Origin: Longimicrobiales bacterium
GTDB taxonomy: Bacteria > Gemmatimonadota > Gemmatimonadetes > Longimicrobiales > Gaopeijiaceae
Direction: 5' to 3'
Length of the DNA: 64,000 nucleotides
Assembly: GCA_965202985.1 (NCBI GenBank)
Contig: CBDBCF010000001.1
Span: 992,001 to 1,056,000, forward strand
Below the pieces are notes generated by a model that was not told the origin of the DNA, ran no database searches, and saw only the letters and a list, made by a program, of their open reading frames with translations. The translations under genes and the position numbers were made by a program. The stretch's first letter is position 1; every line of letters begins with the position of its first letter. Shown here piece after piece: positions 23,444 through 30,922 of the stretch.

Positions 23444-25501
23444 CTACGGGCTCGCTCGTTCCAGGAGCTGGTCGTGGAGCTCGGCGGCAGTCGCGAGCAG
23501 CTGCGGTCCCACTTCGCTGCAAGCGTCCGCACGGCAAAACGGCGCCCGGATTCGCCGGCCCGTGGCGGAAAGAACGCGGGATTCGGCTTCGCCCAAGCTC
23601 ACGCGGGCGGCAATGCGTTCGAGTTCGGCGTCCGGTTCCGCGCACAACCTGTCGTAGCTGATCAGCACCGCGTCGGCCGGAGCCGAACTCAAGACGTGGG
23701 CATATGCGGCGCACCAGTACTCGAGCCAGTACCGAGCCGTCCCGGCGTGCTCGCGCGCGTCGCACCCGGTCACGTCGCCGTAGGGGAACCGGATGGGCCG
23801 CAAGTTGGCTCCGAACTCGAAGTGCCCCAGGTCCCTCATGTATCGGCGAGCAAACGGCTGCGCGGCGTGAATCCGGCAGAAGCGCAAGTGCTGTCGGAGC
23901 AGCGATCCGACTTGGTCGGCGGGCGCACGGAACGGCACGAGAAATACGGCATCGGGAAACAGCTCGCGGATCGCCGGAAACCGCGCGATGTTCGCGTTGT
24001 TCTTGGAGAGGTAGCGTCGCGGCGGACCTTCTCGGAAGCTGTCCGACGCGCGGCGGAGCGCAACGACCTTGGCGACGTGTGCAAGAAAGAATCTCCGAAA
24101 TTCTCCGTGGCGACGGGCGTCGGCGGCAGTCCAAAGGCCAACTTTGTCGCCTGCGTACTTCTCGGGCCAGAACGCGCACCACAGCACTTCCTCGAACGCC
24201 TCAGGGCTGTCGAATCCAACGGTCATGCCGTCTCCGTGGGCGCGGGCGACGGACGTCGAGGAACGGCGGAAGCGTCGCGAAAAGGAGTTCCACAGCAGAG
24301 GAGTCAGCAGGAACGGCATGTCGCGATAGGTGTGCGCAGCAAAGACTCCGACGGCAAACAATGCGTTCAGCAACAAGGTCGTTCCGGCTCGCGGCAATCC
24401 CGCAACGAAGACCGGCCGACCGACGGCTGCGTCGCGGATTCGTCGGCCGCAGAGTCGGCTTTCGACGTCTGCGACGGACTTCTGCAGCTCGAGCACGGAG
24501 AACGCCGCCCTGTGCAGCATCCGGTCCAGGACGGCGTATCGCGCCGGGCCTGCCGTCACATCACGCTCGGAAAGACGTACACGACCACGGCCAGCGCCGC
24601 CGCAAGCAAGGCCGCCGGACCGCGACGGCGAAGCCGGGAGGCCGGGCCGCGCTGGCATGCTTCCGTCGTGTTGTTCTCCACCTGAGGCCTCCGCAGCATT
24701 CGCTCTCGGCACGACCTTGAAGAGATGGCCGGAAGGACCCAGCAGATGCGCAAGTCGTCGTCTGGCCGAGACCGGCAACAAGGATCCAAGCAATCGATAC
24801 CCGGTGTGGTAGAAGGGTATCGGCCGTTCCTGGATCACGGTCCACCCGTTCCGGACAAAGTGGGCGCGCCACCAAGCGGGGCGAAGGAACCACGGTTCGG
24901 TGAAGGCGTTGCCACGCACTCCGACGGACCGGGGCACTAGGCATCTCCGCAAGATCTCGGCTGTTGCGCGCCTCGCGGGCGGGGCAACCGGCGGGGCGGG
25001 ATAGAACTCCGGGGCACCTTCGCGTCGCGCCAGTCGCTCCACGGCCGACTTGAGCAGGAACACATGATAGAACACGAGACGCCAGATGGCCCAGAAGTGA
25101 GTCGGAACGACATGGACGCACGAACCGCCGGGCCGAAGGATCCGCGCCAGTTCTCGGTGCAGGGCGCGGGGGTCCGCGACGCACGGCATCACCATGCTGG
25201 ACAGTGCGACGTCGAACGACTTGTCGGCGAACGGCAATCGGCGACCATCGTACTGCATGACGTTGGCAAACATTCCGGGCGCGTGACAGGAGCTTGGAAG
25301 GTCCACGGAAACGACGGGGTAGCCTCGTTGGCTCAGAAGGTGCGCTTGGTAGCCCGTGCCGCCGCCGATCTCGACAATCCGCGTCCCGCGGGGTATGGAC
25401 TTCACGATCTCCGACAGCTCGAACCGCCGGAGCCGATGAAGATAGTCGACAAACCAGCGCGCGTTCCAGTCGATGGGCCGCAGCAAGGCGGCACGGTTCA
25501 C
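23444..25501 (-). CDS. Class I SAM methyltransferase fused in frame to a sulfotransferase
   Basis: GTG 25501 overlaps upstream stop. VEIGGGTG, LPFADKSFD, RILRPGG; then PAPS loop VAGLPRAGTT, PEAFEE..W, YLSKNN, FRAP. A possible internal GTG start lies at 24559. Confidence 0.75.
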   Translation of the reverse strand: MNRAALLRPIDWNARWFVDYLHRLRRFELSEIVKSIPRGTRIVEIGGGTGYQAHLLSQRGYPVVSVDLPSSCHAPGMFANVMQYDGRRLPFADKSFDVALSSMVMPCVADPRALHRELARILRPGGSCVHVVPTHFWAIWRLVFYHVFLLKSAVERLARREGAPEFYPAPPVAPPARRATAEILRRCLVPRSVGVRGNAFTEPWFLRPAWWRAHFVRNGWTVIQERPIPFYHTGYRLLGSLLPVSARRRLAHLLGPSGHLFKVVPRANAAEASGGEQHDGSMPARPGLPASPSRSGGLACGGAGRGRVRLSERDVTAGPARYAVLDRMLHRAAFSVLELQKSVADVESRLCGRRIRDAAVGRPVFVAGLPRAGTTLLLNALFAVGVFAAHTYRDMPFLLTPLLWNSFSRRFRRSSTSVARAHGDGMTVGFDSPEAFEEVLWCAFWPEKYAGDKVGLWTAADARRHGEFRRFFLAHVAKVVALRRASDSFREGPPRRYLSKNNANIARFPAIRELFPDAVFLVPFRAPADQVGSLLRQHLRFCRIHAAQPFARRYMRDLGHFEFGANLRPIRFPYGDVTGCDAREHAGTARYWLEYWCAAYAHVLSSAPADAVLISYDRLCAEPDAELERIAARVSLGEAESRVLSATGRRIRAPFCRADACSEVGPQLLATAAELHDQLLERASP

Positions 25502-26526
25502 GTGCCCGATCTCCCCGACGGATCGGACCGATCTTCGAACCACGAACGGAATTCCGTCAGTGTCATCGGCAAGAAGCCGTTGCGCACGACGCTGAAGAGT
25601 CGCTCCAGGTCGGCATAGAGCTGTTCCACGTTCGACGCCGTGCGCATGCGCGGGCTGCCCCCCGGCATGAGTTCCGACGAGTGAATCATGAACTCGAGGT
25701 GCGTTCTTGCCAAAGCGCCGACGGCCACCTTCTTTGCCTGACGCACGGCACCGCGGAAGCTCCGCCTTCGCAGCGCCCATCTAGGGTACGTCGGGTACAA
25801 CCAATCCAGCGCCGGGAACAAGCGACTTGCCACGTGCTTGTGCCAATCGCGCCTGCACCCCGGCCTGGGCGCGCGCAGCCACATCGGCCATCGCCGGAAG
25901 ATCGAGACGGGCACCTCGAGCAACGACGAGGCGCCGGGACGAGACACATCGTCGAGATCGATCCAGTAGGCGGCCTCCGGAAACACCGTGTAGTCGGGAC
26001 CAAAGCCGGCCGGCCCTCCCGGGCAGCGCGTCCAGTCGACGTGGGGCGTCACCGAGCAGTCCACCAGGAAACCCCTTTCCGCAAGGATTCGGGCATAACG
26101 CTCGTCAAAGGCAAAGCGTCCCCCCCGATGACTCGCAACCGCAACGTCGAAGACGTCCTCCAGCAGCGAGGCGACGCGATGAACCTTGTCGCGCATGACC
26201 GGCTCCGCGTATTCGGTAAGGTACGGGCACCGACGAACCGCCGCGGGCGATGCTGGCGGCGGCGTATTCCAAGCGTGCAGGTGCATGCCCACTTCTCCTG
26301 TGCCCCGAGCGACGACTTCTCGGCCCAGTTCGACGAACGCCGGCGACTGCGCCATGACATAGTCGACCAAGTAGGTGACCTTGAGTCCGTATCGCTCGCA
26401 CAGCGCTTGGAAGCGAGGGACGTAGGCCGCGTTCCTGGTCATGGCGCGCTCGGGCATGGACCAAAGGTCGTCGCCCTCCGCGTCGACCGTGATCAGGAAC
26501 GGGACCGGGGCTTCCGGAGCGGTCAT
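25498..26526 (-). CDS. Polysaccharide deacetylase (WalW/NodB-like)
   Basis: FLITVDAEGD, EVGMHLHAWNTPP, SHRGGRF, VDCSVTP, LLEVPV, FMIHSSEL; ATGA coupling to GT4. Confidence 0.8.
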   Translation of the reverse strand: MTAPEAPVPFLITVDAEGDDLWSMPERAMTRNAAYVPRFQALCERYGLKVTYLVDYVMAQSPAFVELGREVVARGTGEVGMHLHAWNTPPPASPAAVRRCPYLTEYAEPVMRDKVHRVASLLEDVFDVAVASHRGGRFAFDERYARILAERGFLVDCSVTPHVDWTRCPGGPAGFGPDYTVFPEAAYWIDLDDVSRPGASSLLEVPVSIFRRWPMWLRAPRPGCRRDWHKHVASRLFPALDWLYPTYPRWALRRRSFRGAVRQAKKVAVGALARTHLEFMIHSSELMPGGSPRMRTASNVEQLYADLERLFSVVRNGFLPMTLTEFRSWFEDRSDPSGRSGT

Positions 26527-27659
26527 CGTGGGCCGCACAGCGTGCGCAGGTCCGTCGCCATGCGCTCGAACCAGCGCGTGCTGCGATAGCGCTCTCCTTG
26601 CCGGCGGGCGCCCTTGCACAACTGCTTGTACAGGCCGGGGTCGCCCAGAAGTCGTTCCACGGCCGCCCGCACCGCCTCGGCGGACCGCGGCTGCACAAGG
26701 ATGCCGTTGACTTCGTGCTCGACCACCTCCGCAACCCCGCCCCAATCCGAGGCCACGACGGGAAGGCCGCATTGGAATGCCTCCAGAATCGTGCCGGGAT
26801 AGCCTTCGCGGCCGCAGTAGCTGGGCGCCAGCAACAGATCGTGGTCGCCGAGCACGCGAGGCACGTCGCCGGGTGCAAGCACGCCCCCATAGACTGCCGT
26901 CGGATGACCGTCGAACAACGAGAAATCGGTATCGGACATCCCGGGTCCGTATACGTGCAGCCGGCATGGCTCCGGCAAGCGGCGACACGCTTCCAGCGCC
27001 TCGGCCAGCCCCTTGTCCATGTGCAATCTGGCCAGGAAGACCAGTCGATGCGGCTCGCGCCGGGGGGGGACGGTCGGCGCTTGCACGTTTCGCGTATTGG
27101 GAAACCATCGAACGTTCGGGCAGCCGGCGAATTCGCGTTGGAGCGCTTGCGTCTCCACGTATATCAACGCGCTACGCATCCAGGTTCGATCCGCAAGCCA
27201 ACGTGCGATGGAGCCGTAGCGCCGGTAATGGATGCCCAGGTCCGCTCCCGTTGCTCGCATTGCCAAGTGTCGCCTCGCGATGCGGCAAACAACCCATGCG
27301 GTCAACCCCGCAACTCCCGCCGAGAATCCGGCAACGACAAGCAGTACGATGTCGCAACGGCGCACTCGCACAGCGATGCCGAAGGTCGCTTTGACGAACC
27401 TTGCGAAGCGAACGACTCGGAACGTCCACGGGGAGAGATTGGCGACGGGTCCAGACGTGTCCACGACTGCAACGTCGAAGCCGTGGCGACCCAGCTCCCG
27501 CACGATCTCTCCGATCATCAGCCTGTTTCCCCCGACAACGTTGGTCTTCGACCGTCCGCCGCCGACGGGACCCACGACGAGCACCCGGGGGCGACGGCGA
27601 GGCGGCGAGGCGCGGGCGTCTGGCCTTTCGGACTGCTTGGCGGTTATCTTTGTCCGCAT
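26523..27659 (-). CDS. Glycosyltransferase family 4 (GT-B)
   Basis: FLARL...KG, EGYPGTILEAFQCGLPVVASDWGG (EX7E). Its ATG overlaps the divergent GT2 ATG. Confidence 0.85.
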   Translation of the reverse strand: MRTKITAKQSERPDARASPPRRRPRVLVVGPVGGGRSKTNVVGGNRLMIGEIVRELGRHGFDVAVVDTSGPVANLSPWTFRVVRFARFVKATFGIAVRVRRCDIVLLVVAGFSAGVAGLTAWVVCRIARRHLAMRATGADLGIHYRRYGSIARWLADRTWMRSALIYVETQALQREFAGCPNVRWFPNTRNVQAPTVPPRREPHRLVFLARLHMDKGLAEALEACRRLPEPCRLHVYGPGMSDTDFSLFDGHPTAVYGGVLAPGDVPRVLGDHDLLLAPSYCGREGYPGTILEAFQCGLPVVASDWGGVAEVVEHEVNGILVQPRSAEAVRAAVERLLGDPGLYKQLCKGARRQGERYRSTRWFERMATDLRTLCGPR

Positions 27660-28794
27660 GAAACCTGCCCCTCCCTCGGTCTCCGTCGTCATCCCGGCTC
27701 GCAACGAGGAAGCCACGATCGGAGAAGCCCTCGATTCCGTGCTGTCCCAGGACTACCCGGGTTCCTTGGAGGTGATCGTAGCCGACGGCTCGGAAACGAC
27801 CGCCACTTCCAAGGTAATTGAAGAGCGGTACCCGTCGGTGCGGATCGTCCCCAACCCGCAACGGTTCCTTGCCCTCGGCGTCAACGCGGCGTGCCAAGTT
27901 GCTGCGGGCGACGTGATCGTGCGTTGCGACGCCCGCACGAAGTTGCCGCCCGGATACCTTCGCCGCGCCGTGGAGACCCTGCAGAGGACCGGCGCGGGCA
28001 ACGTGGGAGGCCGCCAGCAGCCGGTCGGCACCACGTTCTTCGAGCGTGTCGTCGCCATGGCGACGACGACGCCTCTGGGGGTCGGAAGATCCCGATACCG
28101 GCTGGGCGGCGCCGAGGGGCCGGTGGAGAGTGTCATCCTGGGAACGTTTTGGCGGCAGACGTGGGAGGCGGTGGACGGATACGACGAGTCGCTGCCGTGC
28201 GCGGAGGATTACGAACTGAACTGGCGGTTGCGACAACGAGGCCAAACCGTGTGGTTCGACCCCGCACTCTTTGTTTTGTACCAGCCGCGCGCAACCTTGC
28301 GGAAGCTTGCGCACCAGTATTTCCGATACGGACGATGGAAGCGCGTGGTTCTGGGGATGCACCCGCGCGCCGCATTGTCCCGTCATTTTGCCGCCTCCGC
28401 GCTCTTGTTGGGGCTGGCAACGTCTGCGGTCGCAGCAGGAGCGGGTGCGCCGTGGGCCGCGGCCGCGGCTCTGCCCATCGCTTACGCGCTTTCACTGGTC
28501 GCGGGCTCTGTGGTGGTCGGCCTGCGGCGCGGCGAGCCTGCGGCGTTGGGGCTGCCCTTTGTGCTTGCGACCATGCACTTGAGCTGGGGCGTCGGGTTCT
28601 GGACGCCGGGCCGGGCGCGGCGACCGCCTGTACGGTCGGGCGCGGAACTCGGTCCCTTTGGGCGCGACGGAAACAAGAAGCCCGTGCCCCAACTGGAATG
28701 CATGGTGGCCAGCACCAGTGGAAGCAGAAGCCCCGCCCAGTCCCGCCGGCGAACTCCGGCGATCGACGACCCGACCACCAAGGCGCCCAAGTAG
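27658..28794 (+). CDS. Glycosyltransferase family 2 (ExoA-like), opposite orientation to the rest of the cluster
   Basis: VSVVIPARNEE, VIVADG, VRCDA, EDYELNWRLR, QYFRYGRWK, HLSWGVGF. The domain ends ~28620 and the ORF then runs antisense into its paralogue. Confidence 0.85.
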   Translation: MKPAPPSVSVVIPARNEEATIGEALDSVLSQDYPGSLEVIVADGSETTATSKVIEERYPSVRIVPNPQRFLALGVNAACQVAAGDVIVRCDARTKLPPGYLRRAVETLQRTGAGNVGGRQQPVGTTFFERVVAMATTTPLGVGRSRYRLGGAEGPVESVILGTFWRQTWEAVDGYDESLPCAEDYELNWRLRQRGQTVWFDPALFVLYQPRATLRKLAHQYFRYGRWKRVVLGMHPRAALSRHFAASALLLGLATSAVAAGAGAPWAAAAALPIAYALSLVAGSVVVGLRRGEPAALGLPFVLATMHLSWGVGFWTPGRARRPPVRSGAELGPFGRDGNKKPVPQLECMVASTSGSRSPAQSRRRTPAIDDPTTKAPK

Positions 28795-30482
28795 GCCAGA
28801 GGCGCGGCCGCAGCAACCGGCGTCGGGGCTCCCATCAACGCCAGCAGAGCCGATGCGGCCAGTGCCAACATGAGCAGGGGAGCGGCAAAGTGACGCATCC
28901 TGAAGGAAGACGGATGCCGCGTCAGGACGACCCGCTTCCATCGGCCGTAGTCCCAGTACTGTCGGGCAAGACGCCCGACGGAAGAGCGAGGCTTGTAGAT
29001 GGCGGCCATCCGGGGGTCAGGGTCGAACCAGACGACTTCGCCCCGCTGTCGCAAGCGCCAATTCAGCTCGTAGTCTTGATTGCGCACCAGGGATGCGTCG
29101 AAACCGCCCACCGCGTCCAAGGCCTGCCGTCGGAACGCGCCCAAGAAGAACGTGTCCACCGGCCCTTCGGCGCCGTCCAGCCTGTATCGGGCCCCTCCAG
29201 AGCCCAGAAGCGTGGTTATGGCCATGGCCACGGCGCGTTCGAAGAACGTCGTGCCCGCCGGATGTTGGCGGCCTCCGACGCTTGCCGCCCCGGTCCGCGC
29301 CAAGGTTTCGACGGCCCGACGCACGTACCCCGCCGTAAGGACGCTATGCGCATCGCATCGAACTACGACTTCCCCCGTCGCGACGCTCAGCGCGGCGTTG
29401 AGCCCGCACGAGGTGGTCCGCTCGGGGTTGGGGACCAGTCGCACTCGGGGATACAGCCTGCGAACGATCGACGACAGGGCAGGCGTCTCGGAACCGTCCG
29501 CCACGATCACCTCCATCGGACCGTCATAGTCCTGAGAAAGGACGGATTCGATCGCCGCCGAGATCGTGGCTTCGGCGTTCCGCGCAGGAATGATCACGGA
29601 GACCAGCGGCGGCCCCTCAGCGACCCAGGACCACGGCTGCGCCCTATGCACGTAGACTGCGTTCTCCGTCCAAGACGAGGACTCCTGCATCAACGCGACG
29701 CACTCGTCGTAGGTGGCGGCCAACAGATCTTGGGTCTCGCTGCCGAGCCTATGGCGGCTCTTGCCCGCAGGACGAAAAAACAGGCGCCCGACCAGGGGAG
29801 CGTGCTTGATGCGGCGCAACGGATCTCGAAGGTTCAGGCGGCGTAGGACGACGGCAAGCACCGTGCCGAGGGCAGCAAGCGGCACGAAACGGGCTTCCAC
29901 GGCGTCGTTGACCACGTCTTGCCGCACGGGGCCGAAATCGCCGATGCCGCACTGTGCCGACAGCACTCGGAGCACGGAGTTGGTCTGGTCGGTCAACGTG
30001 GTGAACGGAACGACGATCAGATCGGCGTTCAGCCGCATGAGACGGCGTAGGTGCGCCGGCCGCAGTCGGTCGCGGAGCGCCGCGAGTTCGAGGCGGCGCA
30101 CACCGAACCACGCCGACGGCTGACCCCGGCTCTTGCGAAAGCGCATCACGGAGACCGCCCGGCGGCGGTGGTCGCGCAAGAGCGCCACCAGGAGGACGCG
30201 AAACCCGTCGCGCCTCAACCTTGAAACGGCACCGGTCAGTGCGTGGTCCTTGTACGCCAAGTTGGCCACGTCGACGACGATTCGCCGACCGTTCGTGCCG
30301 TTTCCGCTTCTTGCCACGGCCTTCCGGAACCGACGGCGGGAACGGTAGTAGTACGCTCCTTCGGCTCGCGTCGCGTCGAGATCGGGGTGGGCCTTCAAGT
30401 TCGCAAGGAGAAACCTGGTTCCGGAACGCCCGGGGCCGGTCACCAGGAGGTAATCGTACTTCGGGCTGGGGCTCCGGCTCAC
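28482..30482 (-). CDS. P-loop/sulfotransferase-like domain fused to GT2 (ExoA-like)
   Basis: GTG 30482 overlaps upstream stop. LVTGPGRSGT..L...L..HP sulfotransferase-type P-loop; C-half VSVIIPARN, VRCDAH, NQDYELNWRLR, QYWDYGRWK, HSSWGTGF. Confidence 0.8.
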   Translation of the reverse strand: MSRSPSPKYDYLLVTGPGRSGTRFLLANLKAHPDLDATRAEGAYYYRSRRRFRKAVARSGNGTNGRRIVVDVANLAYKDHALTGAVSRLRRDGFRVLLVALLRDHRRRAVSVMRFRKSRGQPSAWFGVRRLELAALRDRLRPAHLRRLMRLNADLIVVPFTTLTDQTNSVLRVLSAQCGIGDFGPVRQDVVNDAVEARFVPLAALGTVLAVVLRRLNLRDPLRRIKHAPLVGRLFFRPAGKSRHRLGSETQDLLAATYDECVALMQESSSWTENAVYVHRAQPWSWVAEGPPLVSVIIPARNAEATISAAIESVLSQDYDGPMEVIVADGSETPALSSIVRRLYPRVRLVPNPERTTSCGLNAALSVATGEVVVRCDAHSVLTAGYVRRAVETLARTGAASVGGRQHPAGTTFFERAVAMAITTLLGSGGARYRLDGAEGPVDTFFLGAFRRQALDAVGGFDASLVRNQDYELNWRLRQRGEVVWFDPDPRMAAIYKPRSSVGRLARQYWDYGRWKRVVLTRHPSSFRMRHFAAPLLMLALAASALLALMGAPTPVAAAAPLAYLGALVVGSSIAGVRRRDWAGLLLPLVLATMHSSWGTGFLFPSRPKGPSSAPDRTGGRRARPGVQNPTPQLKCMVASTKGSPNAAGSPRRRPTTTEPATSESA

Positions 30483-30688
30483 CCGCACGCCTCCGGGTGC
30501 GGCTCCAGCCATTCCGTCAGCGCTTCGGCCGCCCACTGGTGGCCAGCAGCGCTCCAGTGGCAGTCGTGGGCCCAGTGCGCATCCTCGATGCGGCCGCTCT
30601 GGCGCGCGGTGCAGCCGAGCTGGTCGATGACGGGAATGCTCCGGGGCGACTGCGGCGCGTCCACCAGATCGAACAGCATGTCGCCCAT
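30479..30688 (-). pseudogene. C-terminal remnant of SGNH/AlgX-like acetyltransferase/esterase
   Basis: DCHWSAAGHQWAAEAL matches the SGNH block V DxHW...GH motif. Only 69 codons; upstream frame is broken. Confidence 0.55.
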
Positions 30689-30922
30689 CGGATTACGACG
30701 CGAGCATGGCTAGCACAAAGCTGTCCAGGCCGCCAAAACGGACCGGCAACGAAACTCGGTCTTGCTGCGGGCGCAGACCTCCGCTACGCACACGACGGCG
30801 GCCAGTCCGCCCGCGTTGAAGACGGCGACGCGCGCGACCGCCCGCGAAGTCTGGCATCACGCGACCTGGCGTCTCGACATGCGCCCCTCCGGCGTCGGTT
30901 CGGGAGTCGGGTACCGCCAAGG

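What the first reader, a model, noticed from the sequence alone, without database searches (positions are those of the whole stretch)
27654..28620. Apparent intragenic inversion: flipping one GT2 segment restores a single 1319-aa four-domain glycan enzyme
Seen: in an otherwise all-minus, tightly coupled cluster one GT2 lies on +. Its ATG (27658) overlaps the GT4 ATG (27659, minus) within one CATG, leaving no promoter or RBS space for either gene. At the other end the two GT2 paralogues meet tail to tail, and neither has a stop at its natural C-terminus; each reads on into the antisense of the other. The segment is bounded by inverted CCGC (27654-57) and GCGG (28617-20). Re-inverting 27658-28616 puts both junctions in frame (...PDRTGGRR|MKPAPPSVSV... 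and ...FWTPGRAR|TKITAKQ...), giving a 3960-nt ORF from 30482 to 26523: P-loop/sulfotransferase-GT2-GT2-GT4. Inference: this is a recent inversion that broke, or switches, a giant multi-domain glycosyltransferase, possibly an intragenic inverton varying surface glycan. Caveats: I chose the breakpoints post hoc, the homology is only 4 bp, no invertase is in the window, and an assembly or amplification chimera is possible.
Basis: partly seen in the sequence, partly recalled or inferred. Interest (0 to 1): 0.85.

Follow-up and report, generated by a model that had tools for sequence, protein, structure and literature searches.

The report
Ancient, frozen glycosyltransferase gene flip
In a bacterium found in sponge and marine metagenomes, one sugar-transferring gene sits backwards between its neighbours and overlaps both; the same layout recurs in another strain and is read from the proteins of distant relatives, so it is likely an old, fixed inversion, not a live DNA switch or a freshly broken giant enzyme.

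Summary
The layout is real: GT2b (27658-28794, +) shares a CATG with the GT4 start and overlaps P-loop-GT2a by 313 nt. The proposed flip gives 1319 aa, but so does an open frame for 25% of breakpoint pairs.
Not an artefact, not recent: a strain about 2.3% different is colinear across both junctions, and no flipped joint is listed in 7 runs. The same antisense read-through tails occur in 9 database proteins, down to about 70% identity, in two clades. GT2b changes avoid conserved columns, so it is likely still working.
An inversion origin is supported: 17 of 17 related loci with two such GT2s are co-oriented, 13 of them fused, often followed by GT4. No GT2-GT4 or 1319-aa fusion was found, and three relatives lack the P-loop fusion.
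Best reading: one old inversion became fixed. It likely gave GT4 a new start, and each GT2 ends at a stop supplied by its partner's Tyr codon. Antisense (noncontiguous-operon-like) control is untested. No earlier scan note on this was found.

The parts
27658..28794 (+). GT2b: membrane-anchored family-2 glycosyltransferase (AED-motif type), 378 aa; core to about 28602, last 64 aa a read-through tail; the inverted gene
   Evidence: Pfam PF00535 E 5e-21; orthologues at 74-88% keep the same Met; tail pLDDT under 50 at residues 320-378
28482..30482 (-). P-loop (sulfotransferase-like) domain fused to GT2a (NQD-motif type), 666 aa; core ends about 28677, last 64 aa a read-through tail
   Evidence: relatives P0006-8 at 83-84% have the same fusion and tail; P0064/65/80 have the tail without the P-loop
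26523..27659 (-). GT4 glycosyltransferase, 378 aa, with an N-terminal extension of about 24 aa; its ATG overlaps the GT2b ATG
   Evidence: Pfam PF13692/PF00534; relatives start about 3-12 aa before the first strand
27654..27660 (.). Left junction: CCGC plus CATG holding both start codons (head-to-head, 2-nt overlap)
   Evidence: bridged in runs X1, X3, X5, X8; upstream frame homologous in P0026
27670..27674 (-). GGAGG Shine-Dalgarno-like motif 10 nt before the GT4 ATG, inside GT2b's antisense
   Evidence: function untested
28600..28676 (.). 77-nt spacer between the two GT2 cores, open in both frames; holds the right junction (GCGG 28617-20 is one candidate)
   Evidence: same register in 9 database proteins; bridged in X1, X4, X5, X8
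28482..28794 (.). 313-nt convergent overlap; third codon positions coincide; each stop lies on the antisense of the partner's Tyr codon
25498..26526 (-). Downstream 342-aa gene (deacetylase-like by eye; no Pfam or NCBIfam hit), coupled to GT4 by an ATGA overlap
   Evidence: 60% homologue follows GT4 in L037

Best explanation
GT2b lies backwards between GT2a and GT4 and overlaps both, likely because one old inversion flipped it out of a co-oriented GT2a-GT2b-GT4 run of a glycan cluster and then became fixed, leaving three genes that are likely all still working. Inferred mechanism: a one-off recombination at short homology cut just before the GT2b start and just inside its C-terminal tail. GT2a and GT2b thereby lost their own stops (either because they were fused, or because the stops overlapped the next start, ATGA-style). 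The product was viable because (i) in this register both proteins stop after 64 aa at a stop supplied by the partner's Tyr codon (shown), adding only a predicted disordered tail, and (ii) the junction supplied GT4 with an in-frame ATG and a GGAGG motif from GT2b's antisense (motifs shown, use inferred). GT2b would need its own promoter inside GT4's antisense. The P-loop fusion to GT2a likely came later.
For: Fixed and old: X5 (study P3) has one 18,250-nt contig colinear over 25523-30577 with 115 differences and no gaps. Left junction bridged in X1, X3, X5, X8; right in X1, X4, X5, X8; no opposite-strand joint at either junction in 7 runs laid (X1 may be the source sample). Antisense tails in the same register in 6 of 6 database members of the GT2a clade and 3 of 4 of the GT2b clade; clades supported 98 and 97. 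Co-oriented ancestor: of 79 loci, 17 hold two or more such GT2s, all 17 co-oriented, 13 fused; GT4 orthologue in 22, within 2 kb downstream on the same strand in 13. L037, next to the GT2b clade (support 96), has GT2-GT2 then GT4 then the same downstream gene. Still selected: window GT2b vs P0030 differs at 12 of 100 conserved and 32 of 88 variable columns (p 1e-4), similar to GT2a vs P0064, 14 of 100 and 43 of 88. A 1- or 2-nt slip in the spacer would give tails of 90/180 or 414/60 aa instead of 64/64; the only length change among the 9 spacers is one whole codon. Window GT4 has no ATG where relatives start.
Against: No direct pre-inversion orthologous locus was seen: the co-oriented loci are 55-68% relatives, and their fused pairs run AED then NQD in 9 of the 13, the reverse of the order that the flip restores. 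GT2a and GT2b are not sisters, so separate arrival followed by deletions could give the same layout. The 9 tail-bearing proteins came without DNA context; only P0026 speaks to the GT4 junction. The tree is the quick one (careful search unfinished). The strain-level test was inconclusive: 8 of 18 X5 differences in the GT2b core are synonymous against 0.31 expected, p 0.16. Window GT2b departs from the family consensus at 9 conserved columns. No promoter-like site found (0, chance 0.3). Logan contigs drop rare variants.
Confidence: 0.72

Rival explanations
1. No single inversion: GT2a and GT2b came from different sources (this GT2 subfamily moves between sponge-symbiont phyla), GT2b landed in the opposite direction, and deletions later removed both intergenic regions, creating the overlaps.
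For: GT2a and GT2b are 61.5% identical and not sisters; the tree does not follow taxonomy; natural tandem pairs are homogenised and mostly in the other order.
Against: Needs two or more events to explain what one inversion explains: both lost stops and GT4's missing native start. GT2b's nearest outside relative (L037) is already co-oriented upstream of this GT4 type.
Confidence: 0.17
2. The old inversion split a true multi-domain polypeptide (GT2a-GT2b, perhaps with GT4, perhaps the full 1319-aa form) into separate genes. This is a sub-case of the best explanation; its confidence is for a three-domain GT2-GT2-GT4 fusion ancestor.
For: The restored GT2a-GT2b linker is 27 aa, against 25-27 aa in 8 of 10 natural fusions; GT4 lacks a native Met; 13 of 17 two-GT2 loci are fused.
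Against: GT2-GT4 in one ORF in 0 of 22 loci and P-loop-GT2 in 0 of 9. No close fused protein among 7988 scored candidates of 663-2000 aa (the tool calls this weak evidence). The GT2b Met is conserved, also in stand-alone P0033, and reads ATGA, the overlap that this cluster uses elsewhere. P0064/65/80 lack the P-loop. Linker length depends on the chosen breakpoints.
Confidence: 0.25
3. A live intragenic inverton: a recombinase flips the segment so that a minority of cells make the 1319-aa enzyme and a different surface glycan.
For: The flip does give one open frame; three Phage_integrase matches over the cut-off exist elsewhere in the genome; contigs cannot exclude rare variants.
Against: Repeat only 4 bp, and 13 equally good pairs exist. 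The right copy is changed in P0026 (Trp where the window has Arg, so TGG for CGG). One orientation in 7 runs and all 9 tail-bearing relatives. No PF00239 match in G000 (92% complete). Neither flipped junction occurs in G000.
Confidence: 0.03
4. Assembly or amplification chimera.
For: Two paralogues 66% alike at DNA level lie in inverted position.
Against: Independent samples of studies P2 and P3, including a strain with 115 differences, assemble the same junctions; relatives encode the same tails.
Confidence: 0.01

Closest known systems
Intragenic invertons (bioRxiv 10.1101/2023.03.11.532203; passages and sections 14-15 read)
   Same: An inverted segment whose flip would recode or join reading frames; surface-glycan context.
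   Different: No sizeable inverted repeat, no second orientation seen, repeat not conserved, layout fixed across about 30% protein divergence.
Noncontiguous operons / excludons (PMC11034616; abstract and outline read)
   Same: One gene runs opposite to a tightly coupled run of genes, so a read-through transcript would be antisense to it.
   Different: Co-transcription across GT2b and mutual repression are untested; the abstract says that such operons cannot be predicted computationally. Here the coding sequences themselves overlap at both ends.
Overlapping prokaryotic genes (PMC2174442; passages read)
   Same: Convergent and divergent overlaps are known (1890 and 331 against 12737 co-directional in 58 species); ATGA coupling is common.
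   Different: One gene has both a 313-nt convergent and a start-on-start divergent overlap, with a traceable likely origin in one inversion and symmetric borrowed stops.
Membrane-anchored GT2 (Pfam PF00535/PF13641; 'ExoA-like' is a recalled label) and GT4 (PF00534/PF13692) of glycan clusters
   Same: Domains over Pfam cut-offs; GT-A core followed by hydrophobic helices in the model.
   Different: No NCBIfam equivalog reaches its cut-off, so the sugar and product are unknown; best solved relatives are distant (E 5e-7).

Membership tests
Intragenic inverton | Flanking inverted repeats long enough to be recombinase sites (about 11 bp or more is recalled, not from a call) | tested here: not met
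   4 bp; no listed inverted repeat pairs the two junctions
Intragenic inverton | Both orientations present in reads | tested here: inconclusive
   One orientation in 7 runs, but all are contigs, which drop rare variants; no raw reads offered
Intragenic inverton | Repeats conserved in relatives | tested here: not met
   Right copy changed in P0026, deduced from the Trp codon
Intragenic inverton | An invertase in the genome | tested here: inconclusive
   PF00239 0 matches; PF00589 3 matches over cut-off, none in the window, nearest about 400 kb away; genome 92% complete
Noncontiguous operon | Opposite-strand gene inside a co-oriented run | tested here: met
Noncontiguous operon | One transcript spans GT2a to GT4 across the opposite gene | not testable with these tools
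   no RNA holder listed
Noncontiguous operon | Mutual repression of the overlapping transcripts | not testable with these tools
   needs stranded RNA data or reporters
GT2 family (PF00535) | Pfam score over the curated cut-off | tested here: met
   75.8 and 82.7 bits against 23.3
Sulfotransferase (PF13469), P-loop domain | Pfam score over the curated cut-off | tested here: not met
   17.7 bits against 27; 39% relatives P0009 and P0010 carry PF13469, so it is sulfotransferase-like

The most novel reading that the evidence does not exclude
One inversion turned a fused or coupled GT2-GT2-GT4 unit into three interlocked genes, created GT4's start and both borrowed stops in a single step, and was kept because the reversed GT2b is now antisense to the cluster's transcript: cells make either GT2b or GT2a/GT4, a glycan switch run by transcription instead of DNA flipping.
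Probability: 0.17. Interest if true: 0.7.

Novelty: new variant of a known kind. Interest (0 to 1): 0.36.

Why it matters
It removes an exciting claim (a live intragenic switch for a giant enzyme) and leaves a smaller but solid one: a datable natural case in which one rearrangement likely made long overlapping genes at both ends of a gene and stayed fixed while the proteins diverged by about 30%. It shows how chance features (a C before ATG, Pro-Ser codons that read GGAGG backwards, Tyr codons that read as stops backwards) can let an inversion inside a packed cluster survive. If RNA data showed mutual repression, it would be a noncontiguous operon with a known origin, controlling a surface glycan in a sponge-associated bacterium. 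It also warns that 'flipping restores the frame' is weak evidence in GC-rich DNA.

Tried and rejected
In-frame restoration as evidence: rejected, 2772 of 11000 pairs do it. G141's 1428-aa open frame around a GT2: an opposite-strand frame of 1414 aa overlaps it and no GT4 or P-loop match lies in it; rejected as a fused homologue. GT4 and P-loop queries: found in 0 of 150 family genomes; junction-spanning DNA in 0 of 313, with 3 single-GT2 matches; the cluster was not found with these queries in the 3 congeners. Tail-to-tail DNA pattern: 0 in genome contigs and 0 in metagenome contigs (it finds the window). GT4 in metagenome contigs: nothing. So no DNA context was obtained for the divergent tail-bearing proteins. 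Apparent tail matches of L030, L049, L051, L078 and L088: checked, ordinary short tails. Opposite-strand joints all join positions inside the two GT2 cores, not the junctions; read as paralogue cross-matches. No RNA holder listed. Promoter scan 0 sites; Rfam 0. Strain-level synonymous test inconclusive (p 0.16). Inverted duplication of one gene (fold-back) considered: it would explain the symmetric tails, but GT2a and GT2b are not sisters and it does not explain the GT4 junction. The exact-sequence cluster look-up could not be made. Paper searches for this layout listed nothing on it; two searches returned 0 papers; listings only were seen. Earlier scan notes: two shown, neither bears on this.

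Full report
1. Observation. The described bases are there. GT2b runs 27658-28794 on +, P-loop-GT2a 30482-28482 on -, GT4 27659-26523 on -. The two start codons share the CATG at 27657-60. The GT2 genes overlap by 313 nt with third codon positions coinciding. Flipping 27658-28616 in a script gives 3960 nt, 1319 aa, without internal stop. This is weak evidence: GT2a and GT4 already share a frame, so one condition on the breakpoints fixes both junctions. 2772 of 11000 pairs tested gave an open frame, and 13 distinct in-frame pairs had an inverted repeat of at least 4 bp, one of 6 bp. GT4 does have a GGAGG motif 10 nt upstream, inside GT2b's antisense.

2. Artefact or recent? No. Ten of 11 listed runs hold the stretch or part of it, from 5 studies; those with a habitat label are sponge or marine metagenomes. 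I laid 7 of them, all contigs. X1, possibly the source, has one 5016-nt piece across both junctions. X5 (study P3) has an 18,250-nt contig colinear over 25523-30577 with 115 differences and no gaps, a strain about 2.3% different. X3 and X8 bridge the left junction, X4 and X8 the right (study P2). X6 and X9 have no listed piece that bridges a junction. No opposite-strand joint is listed at either junction; those listed join positions inside the two GT2 cores. Contigs drop rare variants, so a rare flipped form is not excluded.

3. How old? Database proteins carry the same signature, a C-terminal tail that is the antisense of a partner GT2's last helices. It is in P0006-8 (P-loop-GT2a, cores 85-86% identical), P0064, P0065 and P0080 (stand-alone GT2a type with their own Met, 69-72%), and P0026, P0029 and P0030 (GT2b type, 78-88%). 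My blast screen missed P0026, P0029 and P0080 because its motif was too strict; their tails are plain. Tails are 64 aa in 6, 63 in 1 (one codon lost) and 97 in 2. In a quick tree of 110 GT2 domains (careful search unfinished, SH-aLRT only) the 7 GT2a-type rows form a clade (98), and the 4 tailed GT2b rows (92) group with P0033 (97), which has an ordinary 11-aa tail and its own stop; L037's pair comes next (96). All 6 database members of the GT2a clade and 3 of 4 of the GT2b clade have the tail, so the layout has one old origin. P0026's extra N-terminal residues match the frame upstream of the window's GT2b, so the GT4 junction is also shared at 85%. These proteins came without DNA; pattern scans found no such locus in two collections.

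4. Was it an inversion? Likely. Of 454 confirmed relatives in genome contigs the best 80 were kept, 79 loci, from MAGs of many phyla. Seventeen hold two or more GT2s of this kind: all 17 co-oriented, 13 fused in one ORF. A GT4 orthologue is present in 22, on the same strand in 20, within 2 kb downstream in 13 (some loci share a genome). L037 has GT2-GT2, one gene, GT4 (58%) and the same downstream gene (60%). One inversion explains three oddities at once: both GT2s lack their own stops, and GT4 has no ATG where relatives start, about 3-12 aa before the first strand. Against: in 9 of the 13 fused pairs the order is AED then NQD, the reverse of what the flip restores; those pairs are homogenised, whereas GT2a and GT2b are 61.5% identical and not sisters.

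5. Was there a giant enzyme? Not shown. GT2 and GT4 share an ORF in 0 of 22 loci, P-loop and GT2 in 0 of 9. Among 7988 scored candidates of 663-2000 aa, 11 matched GT4; the only close one is a GT4-GT4 repeat (54%), and those with GT2 domains (P0015, P0018) match at 34% over less than half. The P-loop query gave 6 proteins of 366-1166 aa, none with two GT2s. Three tail-to-tail relatives lack the P-loop, so that fusion likely postdates the inversion. For a fused GT2a-GT2b ancestor: the restored linker of 27 aa matches 25-27 aa in 8 of 10 natural fusions, though it depends on the breakpoints, and fusions of this GT2 to other domains are common. For separate, coupled genes: GT2b's Met is conserved and reads ATGA, the overlap that couples GT4 to the next gene and a common one in prokaryotes (PMC2174442, passages). 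The two cannot be told apart here.

6. Switch? Unlikely. The repeat is 4 bp; its right copy is changed in P0026; G000 (92% complete) has no PF00239 match and three PF00589 matches over the cut-off, none in the window; neither flipped junction occurs in G000. The inverton preprint calls invertons from inverted repeats plus reads in the reverse orientation (10.1101/2023.03.11.532203, passages and sections 14-15); it also notes that some may be locked, which would match an old fixed state in outcome.

7. How it works now. Shown: each GT2 stops 64 aa after its core at a stop formed by the antisense of the partner's Tyr codon; a 1- or 2-nt slip would give tails of 90/180 or 414/60 aa. Predicted: the GT2b tail is disordered (pLDDT under 50 at 320-378; core mostly 70-95). 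Shown: since the split, GT2b changes avoid conserved columns (12 of 100 against 32 of 88, p 1e-4; P0026 7 of 100 against 24 of 88), as GT2a's do. Inconclusive: X5 differences, 8 of 18 synonymous (p 0.16; I used 31 rows's table, whose long contig has 32 differences). Inferred: all three enzymes are made and build a surface glycan, perhaps sulfated and methylated given the neighbours; GT4 uses the junction-made ATG; GT2b has a promoter inside GT4's antisense that the sigma-70 scan does not see. Untested: whether a transcript from GT2a to GT4 runs antisense across GT2b, as in noncontiguous operons (PMC11034616, abstract). The sugar is unknown: no NCBIfam model reaches its cut-off.

8. Verdict. 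A real, old, fixed layout, most likely from one inversion (0.72). Works like a noncontiguous operon in geometry only; not an inverton. My searches (listings only) showed no paper on this locus; supplements were not examined. New variant of a known kind; interest 0.36.

Noticed in passing
window 30473-30690: Dispersed repeat of about 120-215 nt just upstream of P-loop-GT2a, 6 more matches in G000 at 73-83%, also in G001 and G003; strain X5 lacks 30578-30743; no Rfam match.
   Followed up: partly
window 24701-25577: Methyltransferase part has a second copy at G000:C1:2429966-2430844, 94% identical.
   Followed up: no
window 23444-25780 (-): One ORF joins a methyltransferase and a sulfotransferase domain; this cluster type fuses genes often.
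   Followed up: no
L030-L108: This GT2 subfamily is shared at 50-68% identity by MAGs of many phyla, and its tree does not follow taxonomy: likely a horizontally traded glycan kit.
   Followed up: partly
P0022-P0025, P0141; L032, L038, L049, L052, L056: Tandem GT2-GT2 fusions whose two domains are nearly identical except for small patches, including AED versus NQD next to the predicted catalytic Asp: looks like gene conversion that spares the specificity sites.
   Followed up: partly
window 25498-26526 (-): 342-aa gene without Pfam or NCBIfam hit, deacetylase-like by eye, conserved at 60% behind GT4 in L037.
   Followed up: no
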